Origin: Octopus sinensis
Taxonomy: Eukaryota
Length of the DNA: 61,815 nt
Assembly: GCF_006345805.1 (NCBI RefSeq)
Contig: NW_021832246.1
Location: 1 to 61,815, forward strand
Direction of reading: 5' to 3'
Within the stretch, counting starts at the first letter, position 1, and every line of letters begins with the position of its first letter. Made by a program: the position numbers and the translations under genes. This document shows positions 830 through 58,320 of the stretch, one piece after another. The notes below the pieces were generated by a model that saw only the letters and a list, made by a program, of their open reading frames with translations, made no database searches and had not been told where the DNA came from.

Positions 830-863
830 GGCGCAGGAGTGGCTGTGTGGTAAGTAGCTTGCT
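830..863 (+). mobile_element. tRNA-derived SINE family S1, 5' piece (A-box side) split by insertion
   Basis: GGCGCAGGAGTGGCTGTGTGGTAAGTAGCTTGCT; continues at 3171. Uninterrupted relative at 11866-12021. Confidence 0.9.
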
Positions 864-3170
864 AACAGGTTGCTTCTACGCATGTGCAAGTCAATGTGGT
901 GCTGGACACCGAAGATGTAAGACGTGTTTATGAAAGCCGTCTTAAATTGAAGACTTTTGAATACTCAGCCGTAAGGTAACAATTTTGCGGGGCTAGTGGG
1001 GACCTGTTGTATGTTGCAAATTATTTTTACAAGCAAGAAGTCCTCACTAGACTCTGGTCTACCTGAGGCTGAGTGAAAATATTCACTTAATTGTGAAAAT
1101 TATTGGTTTGGAGGGCGTATCCTGCCAAACTTTCGTTTGAAAATAGTGTCAAATTTTGGCCGTAACGGTGAATTGAGAATTATTCTTGTGGGCGTATCTC
1201 GCAAGAAAACTATAAGAATAAGCCACTTGGATTACCTTTTGAACCAATTTTTGTGGAAGTTGTGTTCCAGTTGCGGCGTTCCAGGTTCAACTCAGGCTGG
1301 GAGTACCGTAAGGCCAGAAGATTTTTGCTGTGTTTTGCTGTTTATTGACTTTCTTTTGAACTTTATTTAACTCACCTTTTTATTTTTTTGGTTTATTGCG
1401 ACTTTCCGTTGATTTCTTCCCTTCTGTTGTGATTTCTCCTTTTAGTTTTTTCAAAAAATCTATCGAATTTTATTTGGACTTTTGAACTTTTTTCTTCTCG
1501 CTTTTTAAGTTTATTTTGAATATATTTCAAAAAAAAAACATGGCAATGAAAAATGACAAAATTTTGGAATAGGAGATTATACCGCCTAAAAAGTGGTTAA
1601 AAGACCGTGAAGATAGGACGGTGGTGTTGAGAACCTACTCCAAGACACTCGACACCATCGCCCTATTCGAAAAGACGGCAATTGAAAAGGAGTTGGCAGA
1701 GTATTTGCCAACAAATAAATTCATTTCCAGGAGTGTCAGATATGCAACGGTGTAGTTGCTATTTGACACCCCTGAAGAGGCTTGCAAATTTGCTAGTAAA
1801 CCCCTGGAGGGTAAGGAAATTTTATTTCTGCCCACGTACCAAAGAAAGAGACTGACGAAAGCTTGGATCTGCGGGCTGCCACCCGGCATAATACCAGAGT
1901 GGATAGAGGAGACTATCCGCCGGGGTCTGGGTAGCAGCGGAACTAAGCTTCTTAATGTGAAAGTTCTTCCTGCGGCTGTTTGGGTTGGGTCAAAAGCAAT
2001 TTTGACCCTTTGGACCCAATCAGCCAATCTGGTTCTTCCAGATTGTTTGAAAATGGCCGGGTGTAGGTACCCGGTGATACTTTAGGGTCGCCCCCCTAGG
2101 TGTCATCGGTGCTTGGAGTCCGGCCATATAAAGAAGAACTGTCCTCGGGAACAAAATAGGATCCCGGAGCAGTTAAGTGAAACCCCTGTAGAAGAGCGAA
2201 TTAAAACGGCCGAGGAAGCGGAGGACTCCTCAAACAGAGGCCGAAAGAGGAAGGTGAGCAACAATGGGTGCTCACCAAAGGATACTAGAGATGAGGAGGG
2301 AAAGGTGAATCTTCCGGCCACGGAGGAGACGCACCCTCCCTCAGTTGAAAAGAAAAAAAAAAGAGGAAGAGAAACGGGACGTTACCGGCAGTCGGTGACA
2401 TAGTACCTGAATGTCCCGGAACTACGTCGGTTGGGGTTGTGCCACCGACAGGAGAAGAAACACCGTTGGCGGGAACTGTGCCGCCAACGAAAGAATTGAA
2501 TATCCCGCACCCGAGCAAAAACGATGTATTGATCCCCTTCCATAGAGGCGGAGAGATTGAAAAGGTGATGGAAAAGCACCATAAGGGAGCACCTTTAGCC
2601 TTCACACAGGACCCCGAATGGCCTCCGCAGGTAGCTGTGGAGGCCGTGGCGTTCGACGTGACGCTTGGGCTGAAGGAGCTCAATGAGGATTATAGCTTGG
2701 TCCCGGGCGACGCTAACACGGAACGCGATTACATTCTGAGGGAGGCGTGGTGGATGGTGGAGGGTGCGGGCACAATTTATTTTGAGGACGAGTCATAAAT
2801 TGTGATACGACTTGAGGGGCCCCGACTTAGAGCTGCGCATTCCTAAGGGAAGTGTAACCCAGGTCTGGGAGGAGGGGCTTTGTGTATTGTATTTATATCA
2901 TATGTAATTATTGAACTATGTTGTTGTTAGTAATGGACTGTTAAGTCCAAAAATTGAAAAGTTGTAAAAATTGTAAGAGGTTTAATACCTCGTTTTGTGT
3001 TTGTTTTTAAAAGAACAATGTTTTAGAGGAGCAGAAGTCGGCGGGCGCTTTTTGTCTTCTCCCATCCTCATCATCTTTCTTTCATTACCATTCATTTCAT
3101 TAATGTCCCCGTCCAGCCCGCAAAGCTAACTTACTCTATGTACTGCCTTTATGGCAAATGTTATGAAACA
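864..3170 (+). mobile_element. ORF1-only non-LTR retroelement (Tx1/HAL1-like), copy 1
   Basis: Bounded by direct repeat AAGTAGCTTGCT (852-863, 3171-3182). Long 5' UTR, one gag-like ORF, ~370-bp 3' UTR, no RT. Homologous copy at 44555-46772. Confidence 0.9.
1540..2798 (+). pseudogene. Disrupted ORF1 (RRM-like region + CCHC zinc knuckle CHRCLESGHIKKNC, basic/Pro-rich tail)
   Basis: ATG at 1540; in-frame TAG at 1570, 1753 and 2083 (copy 2 has TGG and GAG at the first and third). Frameshift in the A-run near 2350; TAA at 2796-2798. C-x2-C-x4-H-x4-C motif at ~2101-2142. Confidence 0.85.
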
Positions 3171-3339
3171 AAGTAGCTTGCTTCCCAACCACATTGGTTC
3201 CGGGTTCAGTCCCACTGCGTGGTATCTTGGGCAAGTGTATTTCACTATAGCCTCGGGCCGACTAATGCCTTGTGAGTGGATCTGGTAGACGAAAACTGAA
3301 AGAAGCCCGTCGTATATATGTATACGTATATGTATATAT

Positions 3340-3380
<41 letters not shown>

Positions 3381-3590
3381 CATGTGTTTGTGTGTCTGTG
3401 TTTGTCTCTCACCACCAAACATCACTTAACAACCGATGTTGGTGTGTTTACGTCCCCGAAACTTAGCGGTTCGGCCAAACAGACCGAGAGAATAATTACT
3501 AGGCTTACAAAGAATAAGTCCTGGGGCAATTTGTTCGACTAAAGGCAGTACTCCAGCATGGCTTCAGTCAAATGACAGAAACAAGTAAAG
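3171..3590 (+). mobile_element. SINE S1, 3' piece (B-box, central domain, internal TA/TG microsatellite, 3' tail)
   Basis: GGTTCAGTCCC B-box-like motif; matches 11881-12021 plus 12430-12635, and 46773-47215. Confidence 0.9.
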
Positions 3591-23668: not shown

Positions 23669-25200
<1,532 letters not shown>

Positions 25201-32092: not shown

Positions 32093-32124
<32 letters not shown>

Positions 32125-32187
32125 ATGTATATGTGTGTGTATATGTTTATATATATATATATGTATACACATACACACACACACACA

Positions 32188-32222
<35 letters not shown>

Positions 32223-32224
32223 CA

Positions 32225-32680
32225 TAAAGTGGATCAGGGTATTATATGCCAAAACCTGCGTGATCTCGGCATAGCTAGAAAGCTTCGAACGTGGTTACGT
32301 GACTTTCTGAAAGATAGAAGTCAGGCAGTAGTGGTCATTGGAACCACCTCAAAGCAAAGACAAATAGGGAGGCGTGTTCCACAGGGCACTCACTGCCTTA
32401 GGACCACTGCTTTTCATAATGATCCACTCAAGTATGCCTTCAGCTACCCGGATAGCCATTAGCTACGCAGACGATACGAATGTCTCGCAGAAAATACAGA
32501 ACCCCTGAGATGATGCTTACCTGCAGCAGGAGTTGGACGCAATTTACATATGGGCTGAGAACAATAATATGCAGGTTAATGCTGAAAAATTCCAAGCCTT
32601 GCGCTACCAGCGTCCAAAACTAAACTTACAGGATAAACTGGTCCACAGGGGATAACAATCGCAGACCCTAAATCAGTGAT
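32225..32680 (+). pseudogene. CR1/L2-like reverse transcriptase remnant
   Basis: KVD.GI...W..DFLKDRSQ.V...VPQGT..LGPLLF...YADD motifs with frameshifts. Confidence 0.85.
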
Positions 32681-43542: not shown

Positions 43543-43551
43543 TTAAATCCA

Positions 43552-43952
43552 AGGCAGCAAGCTGGAAGAACCATTAGCACGCCGGGTGAAATGCATAGTA
43601 GTATTTCGTCTGCCGCTACGTTCTGAGTTCAAATTCCGCCGAAGTCGACTTTGACTTTCATCCTTTCTGGGTCGATTAAATAAGTACCAGTTACGCACCG
43701 GGGTCGATGTAATCGACTTAATCCGTTTATCTGGTCTTGTTTGTCCTCTCTGTGTTTAGCCCCTTGTGGGTAGTAAAGAAGTAGGTATTTCGTCTGTCTT
43801 TACGTTCTGAGTTGAAATTATACAGAGGTCGACTTTGCCTATCATCCTTTTGAGGTCGATTAGTTAAGTACCAGTTGCATGCTGGGGGTATTCTAATCGA
43901 CTGGCCTCCTATTCCCAAATTTCGGGCCTTGTGCTTATAGCAGAAAGAATTA
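43552..43952 (+). mobile_element. S2 SINE dimer (full unit + second unit with alternative tail)
   Basis: GTATTTCGTCTG...TACGTTCTGAGTT block occurs twice (about 43601 and 43785). Confidence 0.85.
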
Positions 43953-44520: not shown

Positions 44521-44554
44521 GGCGTAGAAGTGGCTGTGTGGTAAGTAGCTTGCT
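44521..44554 (+). mobile_element. SINE S1 5' piece split by insertion
   Basis: GGCGTAGAAGTGGCTGTGTGGTAAGTAGCTTGCT; resumes at 46773. Confidence 0.9.
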
Positions 44555-46772
44555 AACACACATGCGCAGTTAGTCAGTTGCTTCCTGTTGAGCCAGAGTG
44601 GACGTGAGTAACCAGCTCCGTCCAATTATAGAAAAAAGACCAGAAACGGAAAGTTGTCGAGGTGATTGATTTTGTTTATTGTGAGTTGGGCATAATTTAT
44701 TACGTCCCAATTATTTCAGTAAGTTGTGTCCAACTCTGAGACAATTTCGCCTGCTCTCGGCGGCTGCCGTTTTTGTGTTTATTGAAAAAAAAGCAGTGGG
44801 GGGGGCGTATCCGTCTTCGATAAATTGAGTGAATATTTTTTTCACGTAATTGTGAGAATAGTATTGTGCTGTAAAGAACTTTTTGTGAAAACTGCTATAT
44901 AGGGGAGTATTTTGCCTCCGAAGTTTGAACAAGTTTTACCAATTTTACACCAATTTTTGTGGAAGTTGTGCGTTCCTGGTTCAATTTAGGCCGGGAGTAC
45001 CAAATGGCCAGAAGGTTTTTGCTGTGTTATTGACTTTCTTTTTAACTTTATTTGACTTTCTTTTTAACTTTACTTGACTCTCTCCTTTTTTCACTGTGAC
45101 TTTCTTCGGATTTCCTTTTCTTCTCGTTTTTTAGTTTTATTCTGAATACATTTAAACAAAAAAACAAAAAAAAAAACATGGCAACGAAAAATAACAAACT
45201 TTTGGAATGGGAGATCATACCGCCTAAAAAGTGGTTAAAAGACCGTGAAGATAGGACGGTGGTGTTGAGAACCTACTCCAAGGCACTCGACACCATCGCC
45301 CTATTCGAAAAGACGGCAATCGAAAAGGAGTTGGAAGAGTATTTGCCAACAATTAAATTCATTTCCAGGGGTGTCAAAAAGAGGAAGAAAAACGGGACAT
45401 TCCGGTGCTACACTGACAGCCGGTAATGTCCCGTTTTTCTTCCTCTTTTTCTTTTTTTTTCCCCTTTTCAACTGAGGGAGGGTGCGTCTCCTCCGTGGCT
45501 GGAAGATTCGCCTTCCTCTCCTCATCCCTATTATCCTTTGGTGAGCACCCATTGTTGCTCACCTTCCTCTTTCGGCCTCTGTTTGAGGAGTCCTCTGCTT
45601 TCTCGGCCGTTATCATTCCCTCTTCTAGAGGGGTTTTACTTAACTGTTCCGGGATCCTATTTTGTTCCCGGGGACAGTTCTTCTTTATGTGGCCGGACTC
45701 CAAGCACCGATGACACTTAGGGGGGCGACCCTCAAGCATCACCGGGTACCTGCACCCGGCCATTTTCAAAAAATCTGGAAGAACCAGATTGGCTGATTGG
45801 GTCCACAGGGTCAAAATTGCTTTTGACCCAACCCAAGCAGCCGCAGGAAGAACTTTTACATTAAGGAGCTTAGTTTCGCTGCCACCCAGACTCCGGTGGA
45901 TAGTCTCCGAAAGAGGAAGGTGAGCAACAATGGGTGCTCACCAAAGGATAATAGGGATGAGGAGAGGAAGGCGAATCTTCCAGCCACGGAGGAGACGCAC
46001 CCTCCCTCAGTTGAAAAGGGAAAAAAAAAGAAAAAGAGGAAGAAAAACGGGACATTGCCGGCTGTCAGTGTAGCACCGGAATGTCCCGGAACTACGTCGG
46101 TTGGGGTTGTGCCACCGACAAGAAAAGGAATACCGTTGGCGGGAACTGTGCCGCCAACGAAAGAACTGAACGTATTGGTCATCTTCTATAGAGGAGGAGA
46201 AATTGAAAAAATAATGGAAGAACACCACAAGGGAGCACCTTTAGCCTTCACACAGGACCCCGAATGGCCTCCGCAGGTAGCTGTGGAGGCCGTGGCGTTC
46301 GACGTGACGCTTGGGCTAAAGGAGCTCAATGAAGATTATAACTTGGTCCCGGGCGACGCTGACTCGGAACTTGATTACGTTCTGAGGGAGGCGTGGTTGA
46401 TGGTGGAGGGCGCGGGCACAAGCGATTTCGAGGACGATATGTAATTATTGAACTGTTATTATTAGTAATGGACTGCTAAGTCCAAAAATTGAAAAATTGT
46501 AAGAGGTTTAATACCTCGTTTTGTGTTTATTTTTACTAATAATGGACTGCTAAGTCCAAAAATTGGAAAAATTGTAAGAGGTTTAATACCTCGTTTTGTG
46601 TTTATCTTTAAAAAGAACAATGTTTTAGAGAAGCGAAAGTCGGCGGGCGCTTTTTGTCTTCTCCCATCCTTATCATCTTTCTTTCATTATCATTCACTTC
46701 ATTAATGTCCTCGTCCAGCCCGCAAAGCTAACTCAATCTGTGTACTGTCTTTATGGCAAATATTTTGAAATA
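44555..46772 (+). mobile_element. ORF1-only non-LTR retroelement, copy 2 (internally inverted/duplicated)
   Basis: TSD AAGTAGCTTGCT at 44543-44554 and 46773-46784; ORF1 ATG at 45178; segment ~45393-45908 is inverted; AATAAA at 46769-46774. Confidence 0.9.
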
Positions 46773-46899
46773 AAGTAGCTTGCTTGCGAACAACATGATT
46801 CCGGGTCCATTCCCACTTCATAGCCCCTTGGGCAAGTGTCTTCTACTATAGCCTCGGGCTGACCAAAGCTTTGTGAGTGGATTTGTTAGATGGAAACTA

Positions 46900-47499: not shown

Positions 47500-47914
47500 A
47501 GAATGTAAAGACAGACGAAATACCTATTTCTTTACAACCCACAAGGGGCTAAACATAGAGGGGACAAACAAGGACAGACAGACGGATTAAGTCGATTATA
47601 TCGACCCCAGTGCGTAACTGGTACTTAATTTATTGACCCCGAAATGATGAAAGGCAAAGTCGAGCTCGGCGGAATTTGAACTCAGAACGTAGCGGCAGAC
47701 GAAGTACCGATATGCACTTAGCCCGGCGTGCTAACATTCTAACCAGCTCGCAGCCTTGATGATGCTAACAATATTCTTTTCTAGTCTAGGCGCAAGGCCC
47801 GAAATTTTTATGGGAGGGAACCAGTCGATTAGATCGACCCCAGTATGCAACTGGTATTTAATTTATTGATCTCGAAGAATAAAAGGCATAGTCGACTTCG
47901 GCGGCATTTGAACT
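47500..47914 (-). mobile_element. Two S2 SINE units
   Basis: Reverse complements of the 43552-43952 units. Confidence 0.85.
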
Positions 47915-56506: not shown

Positions 56507-57772
56507 CTTCGTAACAAAGTGCAGGTAAAAAGGCACCGGAGTCTTTAGTCATCTATCAAGTCACAACATCGACCTCAGGCAGATAATACTTTCCTTAAGA
56601 TGTGCGCTGTGCCCAATAAGGCTGCTTTTTGCAAGACATCAATCTTGCATGGGATTTCCAGTTGCCTTAAGAAGTTTTGAAGTTTCAATTGGAGTGAGCG
56701 CAACACTCCGATAACCACTGGCATCATTTTTACATTACCCTATCGCATTTCATACAGTCTTGCCATTTCCACTTTCAATTCAGAGTACTTGGTGATTTTT
56801 TCAACCGCTTTGCTCACAACATTTATGTCATTTGGTATGGCTACATCAGTGTATTTTTCTGTTTTATTCAATGTGAGAATATCAGTGTATTTTTATTTTT
56901 TATTCAATATGAGAATATCAGGCCGACGGTGTTCGATTACACGATCTGTCTGAAAATCATAGTCCCAGAGTATCGTTACTTTTCCATCCTCCTGCATAAC
57001 TTTAATTGGTACATGTTCTCTATTACTTCATATTGTTATTTATGGTGTAAGAGCCAATGAAGATTCACACACACACTTTATCGTGGCGGCGCTTGCATTC
57101 TTATTGTTCAATGCTCTCTCATCCACTTACCAAGTGGGCCATATTTCCACACTCTTTCCACAGAGTCTGCATTTCTGGGTGTCAGAAGTTTTAAGGACAT
57201 TATACTTCACTGAATTGGTACTGAGAGCCTGGTCTTGTGCAGCAATGATCATGCTTTCGGTGATACGCTTCAAAATCACCTCGCACAAGCCATGCCACCT
57301 ATGCTGTATTATCCTTAGCGTCCTGTTTACTCCTTTCAAACTGTCTATGCATTCTCATTCCAAGAAGGTCTTTTTTTCTCTTCTCCTCAGCTCTTTGGTT
57401 AAACTATTCCTTGCCCATCATTTCATCTGCATTTACACCTACATCTTTCGCGGCATATTGCAACAGGACTCCATCACTATTTATCAAATACTCAGCAAGC
57501 ATTCTTCTTTCTCTCCTTATACAATGGTCTCTGCTAATTAGTCTTCTGCCACCATTCTTTCTTTTCTTATACAGTCTGTTTACGTTTGCTTCAGGGTGTA
57601 GCGTTCCACGCAGCGTCATCAAATTTCTCCTCTTATCCAGTGTAGATATTTCTTCCTTAGTCCATTTGAGGATGGATGCACTATATCTGATAACCGCAAC
57701 TGCCCAGATATTCATTCAGATAATCATATTTTGGGCATTTAGGTTGGATTTCAACACCGTCTTCATCCTTTT

Positions 57773-57775
<3 letters not shown>
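56505..57775 (-). mobile_element. 5'-truncated Dong/R4-type RLE LINE in (TAA)n
   Basis: WAVAVIRYSA..LKWT, AAQDQAL.T, CRLCGKSVE, RPDIL, DVAIP.D, KY.EL..E and LQKAALLGTAHILRKVL motifs occur in order; (TTA)n on both sides. Confidence 0.9.
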
Positions 57776-57820
<45 letters not shown>

Positions 57821-58320
57821 TATTATTATTATTATTATTATTATTATCATCATCATCATTATTATTATTATTATTATTATAAAATGACTACCAAGTGTAC
57901 ACCATTATAGGTAATATATAAACAAAATTCTATAGCGTATTATAATGCCACTTGCAATAAACAGAGCCATCGCTTTAAAACTACAAATCACTATTAAAAT
58001 ACAAACGCCTAATGCAATAAACATAACTGAAATAGGTCTGTAACGAATGCGTATATTCCGGGATCAATGGATTTCGCTTTCTGTATGAAAAATCACACTT
58101 AAGCTCGTCAGTCGGATCTAACGCTACAACAACTATTTCTGAAATATTCATCACATTATACAGAGTGCGTTCTTACATATGAATGCTCCCACGGCATTCA
58201 AAATGAATGTATATACTGTTCAACTAGCGCGGTGATACCATTCACAAGCTAAGACGATCCAAAGCGCATTGTGATCGGTGATGTATAACAACGTCAGTCT
58301 GGTCGATAAGTGATATATAT

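What the first reader, a model, noticed from the sequence alone, without database searches (positions are those of the whole stretch)
1540..3170. The SINE-targeting element encodes only ORF1: a HAL1-like 'half-LINE' with no RT or endonuclease
Seen: both copies run 5' UTR, one ~420-codon gag-like ORF (RRM-like segment, CHRCLESGHIKKNC knuckle, basic and Pro-rich tail), ~330-370 bp 3' UTR, then TSD, with no ORF2 remnant. Stops in copy 1 are sense codons in copy 2 where the two can be compared, so the ancestral ORF was open. Established: HAL1 elements are ORF1-only L1 derivatives. Inference: site specificity must be supplied in trans by an autonomous Tx1-like partner, and ORF1 retention suggests it is required in cis.
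Basis: partly seen in the sequence, partly recalled or inferred. Interest (0 to 1): 0.8.

Follow-up and report, generated by a model that had tools for sequence, protein, structure and literature searches.

The report
Octopus SINE-targeting half-LINE family
An octopus genome carries hundreds of copies of a 2-kb jumping gene that encodes only an RNA-binding protein and sits at one exact spot inside a very common short repeat, and it likely borrows its cutting and copying enzymes from a full-length relative found at the same spot with the same tail.

Summary
Confirmed and extended. Window 852-3185 is one copy of a large octopus family of 1.9-2.7 kb non-LTR elements that encode only ORF1 (two predicted RRMs, a CCHC knuckle, a basic/Pro tail). 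None of 77 full-length copies has an ORF2 remnant or an LTR. They sit at one site (GTGTGGT^AAGTAGCTTGCT) of a SINE with 61,294 exact empty sites. I found the predicted partner: a 5.45-kb L1/Tx1-type element with an intact APE-RT-zinc-finger ORF2, the same site and the same terminal hairpin. The two occur in mixed tandem arrays, and ORF1-only ends outnumber partner-type ends 52 to 19 among 77 sampled junctions. These are not simple deletions: their ORF1 is 27% identical to the partner's, forms its own clade (members down to 35% identity), and shows purifying selection (pN/pS 0.15 for shared variants, 0.71 for private ones), which supports action in cis. New detail: bases 10-15 of the apparent 5' TSD follow the element subfamily, not the local target (17 vs 0), pointing to a target-mimicking RNA leader. 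Corrections: copy 2 is internally inverted, and the TSD is not a clean 12 bp. It works like HAL1 or HeT-A. I found no report of a Tx1-type, SINE-targeted version, but Repbase and Dfam could not be searched.

The parts
830..851 (+). 5' head of the target SINE, with an A-box-like TGGCTGTGTGG (read by eye)
   Evidence: 61,294 exact empty sites genome-wide
852..866 (+). 5' junction of copy 1: about 9 bases of true target duplication plus about 6 bases of target-like leader carried by the element (leader inferred)
867..1539 (+). 5' UTR of copy 1 (AGGTTGCTT subfamily; 5' ends vary widely among subfamilies); presumed internal promoter, untested
1540..2798 (+). ORF1, about 420 codons, broken in this copy (TAG at 1570, 1753, 2083; frameshift near 2357)
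1585..2088 (+). two predicted tandem RRM domains (aa about 16-104 and 105-183)
   Evidence: model of a natural intact copy; Foldseek and VIA; Atlas
2101..2142 (+). single CCHC zinc knuckle CHRCLESGHIKKNC
   Evidence: Pfam zf-CCHC E 0.006, below the curated cutoff; the partner's knuckle passes it
2799..3170 (+). 3' UTR, unrelated to the partner's except for the last about 40 nt
3144..3170 (+). terminal hairpin TGCC-N5-GGCA (3144-3156) plus AAAT..TGAAATA tail shared with the autonomous partner; presumed ORF2p recognition signal
3171..3185 (+). 3' junction: the native target sequence
3186..3590 (+). rest of the interrupted SINE (B-box-like GGTTCAGTCCC read by eye, body, (TA)n, tail)
44543..46784 (+). 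copy 2 (ACACATGCG subfamily), same SINE site; ATG at 45178; rearranged
45393..45908 (-). inverted and partly duplicated ORF1 segment inside copy 2

Best explanation
This is an ORF1-only non-LTR retrotransposon family inserted at one site of an abundant octopus SINE, likely mobilised in trans by the endonuclease and reverse transcriptase of a co-resident L1/Tx1-type partner that shares its target and its 3' hairpin, and likely needing its own ORF1 protein in cis. Shown: anatomy, family size, target, partner with intact ORF2, shared terminal 40 nt, mixed tandem arrays, purifying selection on ORF1. Inferred steps: (1) the element is transcribed from an internal promoter and its ORF1p (RRM-RRM-CCHC) coats its own RNA; (2) partner ORF2p recognises the terminal hairpin and tail; (3) the partner's APE endonuclease nicks the bottom strand at GTGTGGT^AAGTAGC and primes reverse transcription; (4) the top strand is nicked up to about 15-17 nt downstream, and the cDNA end, complementary to a (T)GCTAAC-type leader, anneals to that overhang to prime the second strand; (5) because the target is regenerated at each junction, later insertions build tandem arrays.
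For: 0 of 78 ORF1-family units with both junctions have an ORF2 hit (median 2238 bp), against 18 of 18 partner-type units. Intact partner at G000:C8:54102906-54108352 with ORF1 467 aa and ORF2 1130 aa, Pfam Exo_endo_phos, RVT_1 and zf-RVT, best PDB match LINE-1 ORF2p E 3e-65; an ORF1-only copy follows it directly. Both end in the TGCC-N5-GGCA hairpin and TGAAATA, whereas the genome's related families with other targets end in AATAAAGAAAT or a near variant. Hairpin 93.7% paired, with 5 cells changed on both sides in 44 distinct ends. Selection in 76 copies, codons 9-207: private variants 76 syn/187 nonsyn/7 stop (pN/pS 0.71), variants in 3 or more copies 150/77/2 (0.15); without CpG-context changes 55/151 vs 125/64, Fisher p 3e-15. 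Leader: at position 13, 5'A/3'T in 17 of 80 units vs 5'T/3'A in 0 (p 1.5e-5); 5'/3' mismatch 2.4% at positions 1-9 vs 11.7% at 10-15; genome-wide 48 of 48 5' junctions of one subfamily read TAAC, while 26 of the 100 listed 3' junctions read TTAC. Some 5'-truncated copies duplicate 15-17 nt.
Against: No experiment shows trans-mobilisation or cis action. No listed holder is on record as RNA, so expression is untested. The RRM model is weak overall (mean pLDDT 43.5; VIA top Z 8.2, near the common-fold range). The hairpin has only 4 pairs, and related sequences can beat shuffles. In the position tests the junction regex caps mismatches in the first 11 bases, which lowers the 1-9 rate, and the 5' and 3' pattern sets are not identical subfamilies. 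In 8 units a private target variant at positions 10-12 is shared by both junctions, so the join point varies. Other truncated copies duplicate only 7-12 nt. Recurrent mutation and segmental duplicates could inflate 'shared' variants. Tx1-clade placement is untested by RT phylogeny.
Confidence: 0.85

Rival explanations
1. The copies are simple, recent internal deletions of the autonomous element (dead on arrival, or like TRE5-A.2).
For: They share target and 3' end with the partner. Internally deleted partner copies do exist (L068, L111, L142, L155). An origin from the ancestor of the SINE-targeting partner lineage is not rejected (AU p 0.63, constrained tree 3.7 lnL better).
Against: ORF1 identity to the partner is 27% over 197 aa. 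Only 2 of 77 5' UTRs match the partner's, over about 40 nt, and the 3' UTR has no match beyond the last 40 nt. The ORF1-only ORF1s form one clade with full support on a long stem, with subfamilies from 96% nucleotide identity down to 35% protein identity. An ancient deletion origin stays likely; a recent one does not.
Confidence: 0.03
2. ORF1 is kept because ORF1p, not the endonuclease, helps choose the site, for example by binding Pol III factors on the SINE promoter as TRE5-A ORF1p binds TFIIIB.
For: The site lies between A-box-like and B-box-like motifs (read by eye). TRE5-A ORF1p binds TFIIIB (PMC5633606, passages).
Against: Insertion is base-precise and sequence-defined. The partner's relatives hit (TC)n, (TCTA)n and another SINE, the pattern of endonuclease-defined Tx1 targets (PMC4494074). 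Two ORF1s only 27% alike reach the same base. Short 5'-truncated copies with no ORF1 left also sit at the site, though they came from full RNAs.
Confidence: 0.08
3. ORF1p acts in trans, as a helper or a dominant-negative restraint on the partner, and is kept by host-level or group-level selection.
For: Long stem branch and a distinct C-terminal region relative to the partner's ORF1 would suit a changed function.
Against: Individual copies decay almost neutrally (pN/pS 0.71 with stops), and constraint sits on variants shared along source lineages, as selection on transposition success predicts. No single conserved locus was seen.
Confidence: 0.04
4. A gag-only LTR element or provirus-like remnant.
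For: The CCHC knuckle is gag-like.
Against: No terminal direct repeats (1 weak hit in 77). 5'-truncated copies with intact 3' ends occur. ORF1 is homologous to ORF1 of APE-RT elements (E 1e-21). The N-terminus folds as RRMs, not capsid.
Confidence: 0.005

Closest known systems
HAL1 (half-L1) of mammals
   Same: Non-autonomous LINE derivative encoding only ORF1p (PMC5753468, passages); long independent persistence.
   Different: ORF1 here is RRM-RRM-CCHC (Type I per PMC5203782, passages), not Transposase_22. No poly(A) tail; ends in a partner-shared hairpin. Base-specific target. The defining paper (Bao and Jurka 2010, PMC2923044) was not held.
HeT-A and other ORF1-only Drosophila telomeric elements
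   Same: ORF1-only, site-specialised, tandem arrays with ORF2-bearing partners; about 40% of telomeric families are ORF1-only (PMC13534243, passages).
   Different: Those are telomeric Jockey-type elements (clade recalled); this is L1/Tx1-type and inserts into a dispersed SINE with a target duplication.
Dictyostelium TRE5-A.2
   Same: Lacks ORF2, is mobilised in trans by TRE5-A.1 ORF2p, and targets Pol III units (PMC5633606, passages).
   Different: TRE5-A.2 is described as a variant of TRE5-A.1 and inserts about 50 nt upstream of tRNA genes through TFIIIB/B-box; here insertion is inside the SINE at a fixed base and ORF1 is only 27% like the partner's.
Sequence-specific Tx1-clade elements (Tx1, Keno, Kibi, Koshi, Tx1-Mar) and SINEU
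   Same: APE-RT elements with repeat or transposon targets; non-autonomous SINEU riders share the target (PMC4494074, passages and section 15). This genome also has a (TC)n-targeting family like Kibi.
   Different: The targets named in the parts read are DNA transposons, LTR elements, snRNA genes, 5S rRNA, satellites and microsatellites, not a SINE; the riders are non-coding, not ORF1-coding.
Melanogaster-type R1 and Drosophila R2 5' junctions
   Same: Target-like bases at the RNA 5' end are proposed to anneal and prime second-strand synthesis (PMC2718515, passages).
   Different: There the leader is upstream 28S sequence or two Gs; here it mimics the downstream part of the duplicated target and differs by subfamily.

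Membership tests
ORF1-only non-autonomous non-LTR retrotransposon (HAL1-like class) | Full-length members encode ORF1 and lack ORF2 | tested here: met
   0 of 78 and 0 of 77 units with an ORF2 hit; 12 of 77 with an open ORF1 of 390 aa or more
ORF1-only non-autonomous non-LTR retrotransposon (HAL1-like class) | Propagates as its own family, not as one-off deletions | tested here: met
   Own clade 100/100; subfamilies; selection on shared variants
ORF1-only non-autonomous non-LTR retrotransposon (HAL1-like class) | TPRT hallmarks: target duplication, 5' truncation, no LTRs | tested here: met
ORF1-only non-autonomous non-LTR retrotransposon (HAL1-like class) | Mobilised in trans by a partner's ORF2p | not testable with these tools
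   Indirect only: shared target, 3' end and mixed arrays
HAL1 proper (mammalian L1 derivative) | ORF1 of mammalian L1 type (Transposase_22) | tested here: not met
   Pfam finds only zf-CCHC at E<=1; model gives tandem RRMs
L1 group of APE-type LINEs (partner) | ORF2 with N-terminal APE, RT and C-terminal zinc motif, closest to LINE-1 among solved structures | tested here: met
   (LINE-1 ORF2p E 3e-65 vs R2 E 6e-20)
Tx1 clade (partner) | RT groups with named Tx1 references in a phylogeny | not testable with these tools
   No named Tx1 reference came up: one search hits are unnamed or generically named; one search gave none
Tx1 clade (partner) | Type I (RRM + CCHC) ORF1 and sequence-specific insertion into repeats | tested here: met
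   criteria from PMC5203782 and PMC4494074 passages
tRNA-derived or CORE SINE (target) | tRNA-related head | tested here: inconclusive
   ARAGORN none in 6 loci; Rfam no tRNA match at E<=10 in two stretches; A/B boxes read by eye; resemblance to octopus OR2/CORE is recalled, not tested
LTR retroelement | Long terminal repeats | tested here: not met
   1 of 77 units with a weak 32-bp 81% match

The most novel reading that the evidence does not exclude
A three-tier parasite system unreported so far: a SINE is the dedicated niche of a Tx1-type LINE, which is in turn outnumbered nearly 3 to 1 by an old protein-coding satellite lineage. The satellite keeps its own, deeply diverged ORF1p for cis packaging, captures the partner's ORF2p through a 40-nt 3' signal, and renews a target-mimicking 5' leader as SINE subfamilies turn over. 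It would be the first ORF1-only, base-specific Tx1-type element and a natural experiment showing that ORF1p can be cis-required and unmatched to the ORF2p it works with.
Probability: 0.5. Interest if true: 0.75.

Novelty: new variant of a known kind. Interest (0 to 1): 0.6.

Why it matters
Why ORF1-only elements keep ORF1, and whether ORF1p must match the ORF2p it serves, is an open question. Here both players have natural open reading frames in one genome, are young (98% and 96% mean identity among 8 copies each), and share a base-exact target, so cis/trans complementation and ORF1 swaps become direct tests. The genome also holds a small radiation of related endonucleases with different targets (two SINEs, (TC)n, (TCTA)n), useful for mapping specificity. 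For octopus repeat annotation, the 2-kb family has no RT and would probably be labelled unknown or mistaken for genes: one fragment is annotated as LOC115225585.

Tried and rejected
LTR/gag-only reading: rejected. Recent-deletion reading: rejected. Claim that ORF1 comes from a lineage unrelated to the partner: not supported; free trees put it on a long stem away from all autonomous ORF1s, but the AU test does not reject a clade with the SINE-targeting partners, so old origin and accelerated evolution cannot be told apart. Rows L113 and L127 and L218 and L179 were dropped for aligned pieces under 130 aa. Pairwise dN/dS binned by dS (0.40 to 0.09) is biased by the binning and is not relied on. 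The repeat finder was swamped by microsatellites. tRNA identity of the SINE head: no ARAGORN or Rfam support. Expression: no RNA holder listed; one run guessed to be RNA has contigs over 28 of 30 bins but is not shown to be RNA. An endonuclease-region homologue search returned nothing at E<=1e-10. No close ORF1 relative outside this species' annotation was found among predicted proteins; the next hits are 23-31% identical, several from other Octopus species. Earlier scan findings: none. No complex prediction was sent.

Full report
Setting. The window is contig C8717 of a 2.72-Gb genome. Source names of its proteins say Octopus sinensis.

Observation. Copy 1 runs from a SINE head (830-851) through AAGTAGCTTGCTAAC (852-866), a 5' UTR, an ORF from ATG 1540 to TAA 2798, a 3' UTR, and AAGTAGCTTGCTTCC (3171-3185), after which the SINE continues. 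The ORF has TAG at 1570, 1753 and 2083 and a frameshift in an A-run near 2357. Two of the stops are sense codons in copy 2; the third region is missing there.

Family. A DNA search gave 41 matches from 40 scored of 1995 candidates, and a protein search 150 of 150 scored at 65-100% identity; both are lower bounds. The exact 3' junction pattern occurs 993 times (control 0) and the exact empty site 61,294 times. Of the first 77 listed junctions I examined 70 directly: 50 are ORF1-only-family ends, 15 partner-type, 5 unclassified. The 7 skipped were judged from coordinates of earlier hits: 4 partner-type, 2 ORF1-only, 1 unassigned. The total is 52:19:6, which extrapolates to very roughly 670 ORF1-only-family ends; the sample is positional (C1 and the start of C2), not random. 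Among 97 units with both junctions found, 78 had this family's ORF1 and none an ORF2 hit; 18 had the partner's ORF1 and all had ORF2 hits; 1 was an ORF2-only truncation. These units were required to have target junctions, so they do not measure off-target insertion. There are no LTRs.

Protein. Natural open frames are 421-425 aa; 12 of 77 full-length copies are open. Many others shift frame at the A-run, which may partly be assembly error. Pfam sees a sub-cutoff CCHC knuckle. The Atlas's nearest clusters are CCHC and ZCCHC3-RBD types (0.90-0.93). An AlphaFold model from 20 aligned natural sequences is poor overall (pLDDT 43.5), best over aa 20-100, and matches tandem-RRM proteins (25 Foldseek matches at E<=0.001, of which those listed are RRM proteins; VIA Z up to 8.2, rmsd 3.0 over 82 residues). 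RRM plus CCHC is Type I ORF1, consistent with Tx1 (PMC5203782, passages).

Partner. Junction sampling turned up ORF2 ends at the same site. G000:C8:54102906-54108352 (L118) is 5447 bp with ORF1 467 aa and ORF2 1130 aa, carrying APE, RT and zf-RVT, closest to LINE-1 ORF2p in the PDB. An ORF1-only copy follows it head to tail, and L068/L116 is an ORF1-only, partner, ORF1-only array. The two share the last about 40 nt: a TGCC-N5-GGCA hairpin and TGAAATA. The hairpin is 93.7% paired in 44 distinct ends with compensatory UA to CG/GC and CG to UA changes (4 pairs only, 44 of the 47 distinct ends were aligned). Related autonomous families in (TC)n, (TCTA)n, a second SINE and other sites end in AATAAAGAAAT or a near variant. 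Upstream of the tail the 3' UTRs are unrelated, and 5' UTRs match only at the tip in 2 of 77.

Independence and selection. ORF1 identity to the partner is 27% over 197 aa, lower than the partner's 41-46% to families with other targets. ORF1-only ORF1s form a 100/100 clade on a long stem. Against over-reading this: an AU test does not reject grouping them with the SINE-targeting partners (p 0.63; the constrained tree scored better). An ancient ORF2 loss from the partner lineage followed by fast ORF1 change remains the simplest origin. In 76 copies (77 less one with a weak ORF1 score), private variants are near neutral (76 syn, 187 nonsyn, 7 stop; pN/pS 0.71) and variants shared by 3 or more copies are strongly constrained (150, 77, 2; 0.15). 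Without CpG-context changes the contrast holds (p 3e-15). Constraint on amino acids, and not only on stops, means the protein matters, and constraint along source lineages means it benefits the element that encodes it. That is the argument for action in cis; it is inference.

Junction. The apparent TSD is composite. In 80 full-length units that end in the SINE, the 5' side reads A where the 3' target has T at position 13 in 17 cases, and never the reverse; mismatch rises from 2.4% (positions 1-9) to 11.7% (10-15). One subfamily's 5' junction reads TAAC in 48 of 48, while 26 of 100 listed 3' junctions (of 125) read TTAC. Nine of 81 units have AAGTAGCTT+TGCTAAC with an extra T, and particular 5' ends recur with their own leader variants (CTTACC, TCTCACC) at independent loci. 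Partner copies show the same. Some 5'-truncated copies duplicate 15-17 nt, others 7-12, and 8 units share a private target variant at positions 10-12. The best reading is a top-strand nick up to about +15-17 and annealing of a leader-derived cDNA end, with mismatches resolved either way. A nick near +9 with simple joining is not excluded. A like mechanism is proposed for R1 and R2 (PMC2718515, passages). Young 3' sites are 74 of 100 TAAC against about 53 of 100 listed empty sites (hand count); this is suggestive only.

Mechanism, marked. Shown: anatomy, target, partner, shared tail, arrays, selection, junction asymmetry. Inferred: internal promoter, cis coating by ORF1p, capture of partner ORF2p by the hairpin, endonuclease-defined targeting, leader-primed second strand. 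Confidence 0.85.

Comparison and novelty. It works like HAL1 (PMC5753468, passages), HeT-A (PMC13534243, passages) and TRE5-A.2 (PMC5633606, passages), but it is not HAL1 proper. Tx1 elements targeting other transposons, with non-coding riders, are known (PMC4494074, passages and section 15). Nine searches listed no paper on an ORF1-only Tx1-type element or a SINE-targeting Tx1 in octopus; most hits were seen as listings only. The O. vulgaris annotation (PMC13282606, parts 1-2 of 3) counts 13 recently active L1-Tx1 families but describes no targets in the parts read. PMC4758252 and PMC11203168 (passages) added only that an octopus CORE SINE (OR2) and gastropod Tx1 exist. Bao and Jurka 2010 was not held. 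Supplements of these papers, the Zenodo library, Repbase and Dfam were not seen and could already hold these families. Contigs of runs with three different organism labels cover all 30 bins of copy 1 at 85% likeness or more, so the family is probably not confined to one assembly.

Verdict. A real, well-supported new variant of a known kind; interest 0.6.

Noticed in passing
window 23797-25165 (+): 5'-truncated copy of a different L1/Tx1-type autonomous family (zf-RVT, 59% to the partner's ORF2) inserted in a (TCTA)n microsatellite, ending GCCAATAAAGAAAC.
   Followed up: partly
L122, L123, L127, L129, L131: Autonomous family inserted in (TC)n, like Kibi; L122 has an 1138-codon open ORF2 frame.
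   Followed up: partly
L150, L151: Second SINE-targeting autonomous family, inserted at CGTATTTCGTCTGCC of another abundant SINE (copies of that SINE lie at window about 43550-43810 and 47500-47760). So SINE targeting occurs at two different SINEs in this genome; whether it has an ORF1-only rider was not checked.
   Followed up: partly
L128, L130, L137, L152, L153: Further related autonomous families with other, unidentified targets; L153 is in tandem.
   Followed up: no
L063, L068/L116, L073, L077, L118, L183: Head-to-tail arrays of up to three or four units mixing subfamilies and the partner, since each junction regenerates the target.
   Followed up: partly
L117 (G000:C1:6391000-6400500): Deeply diverged ORF1-only unit (35% identity to P0001) of about 2.1 kb at the same site, with a variant 3' end.
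   Followed up: partly
ORF1-only units: 5' ends are highly diverse (37 different first 9-mers in 77 copies); L025 and L063 begin with tips like the partner's, suggesting exchange of 5' ends.
   Followed up: partly
L027, L066, L069, L070, L079, L158, L162: Some subfamilies sit in the AAGAAGCTTGCTTCC variant of the SINE and carry matching TTC(C/T) leaders, suggesting turnover in step with SINE subfamilies.
   Followed up: partly
L170, L177: An internal junction-like sequence (tail plus AAGAAGCTTGCTTCC) inside the 3' UTR, perhaps a captured older end.
   Followed up: no
window 57264-57887 and 32094-32462: Decayed RT-like fragments of other LINEs (seen in the ORF list; not identified).
   Followed up: no
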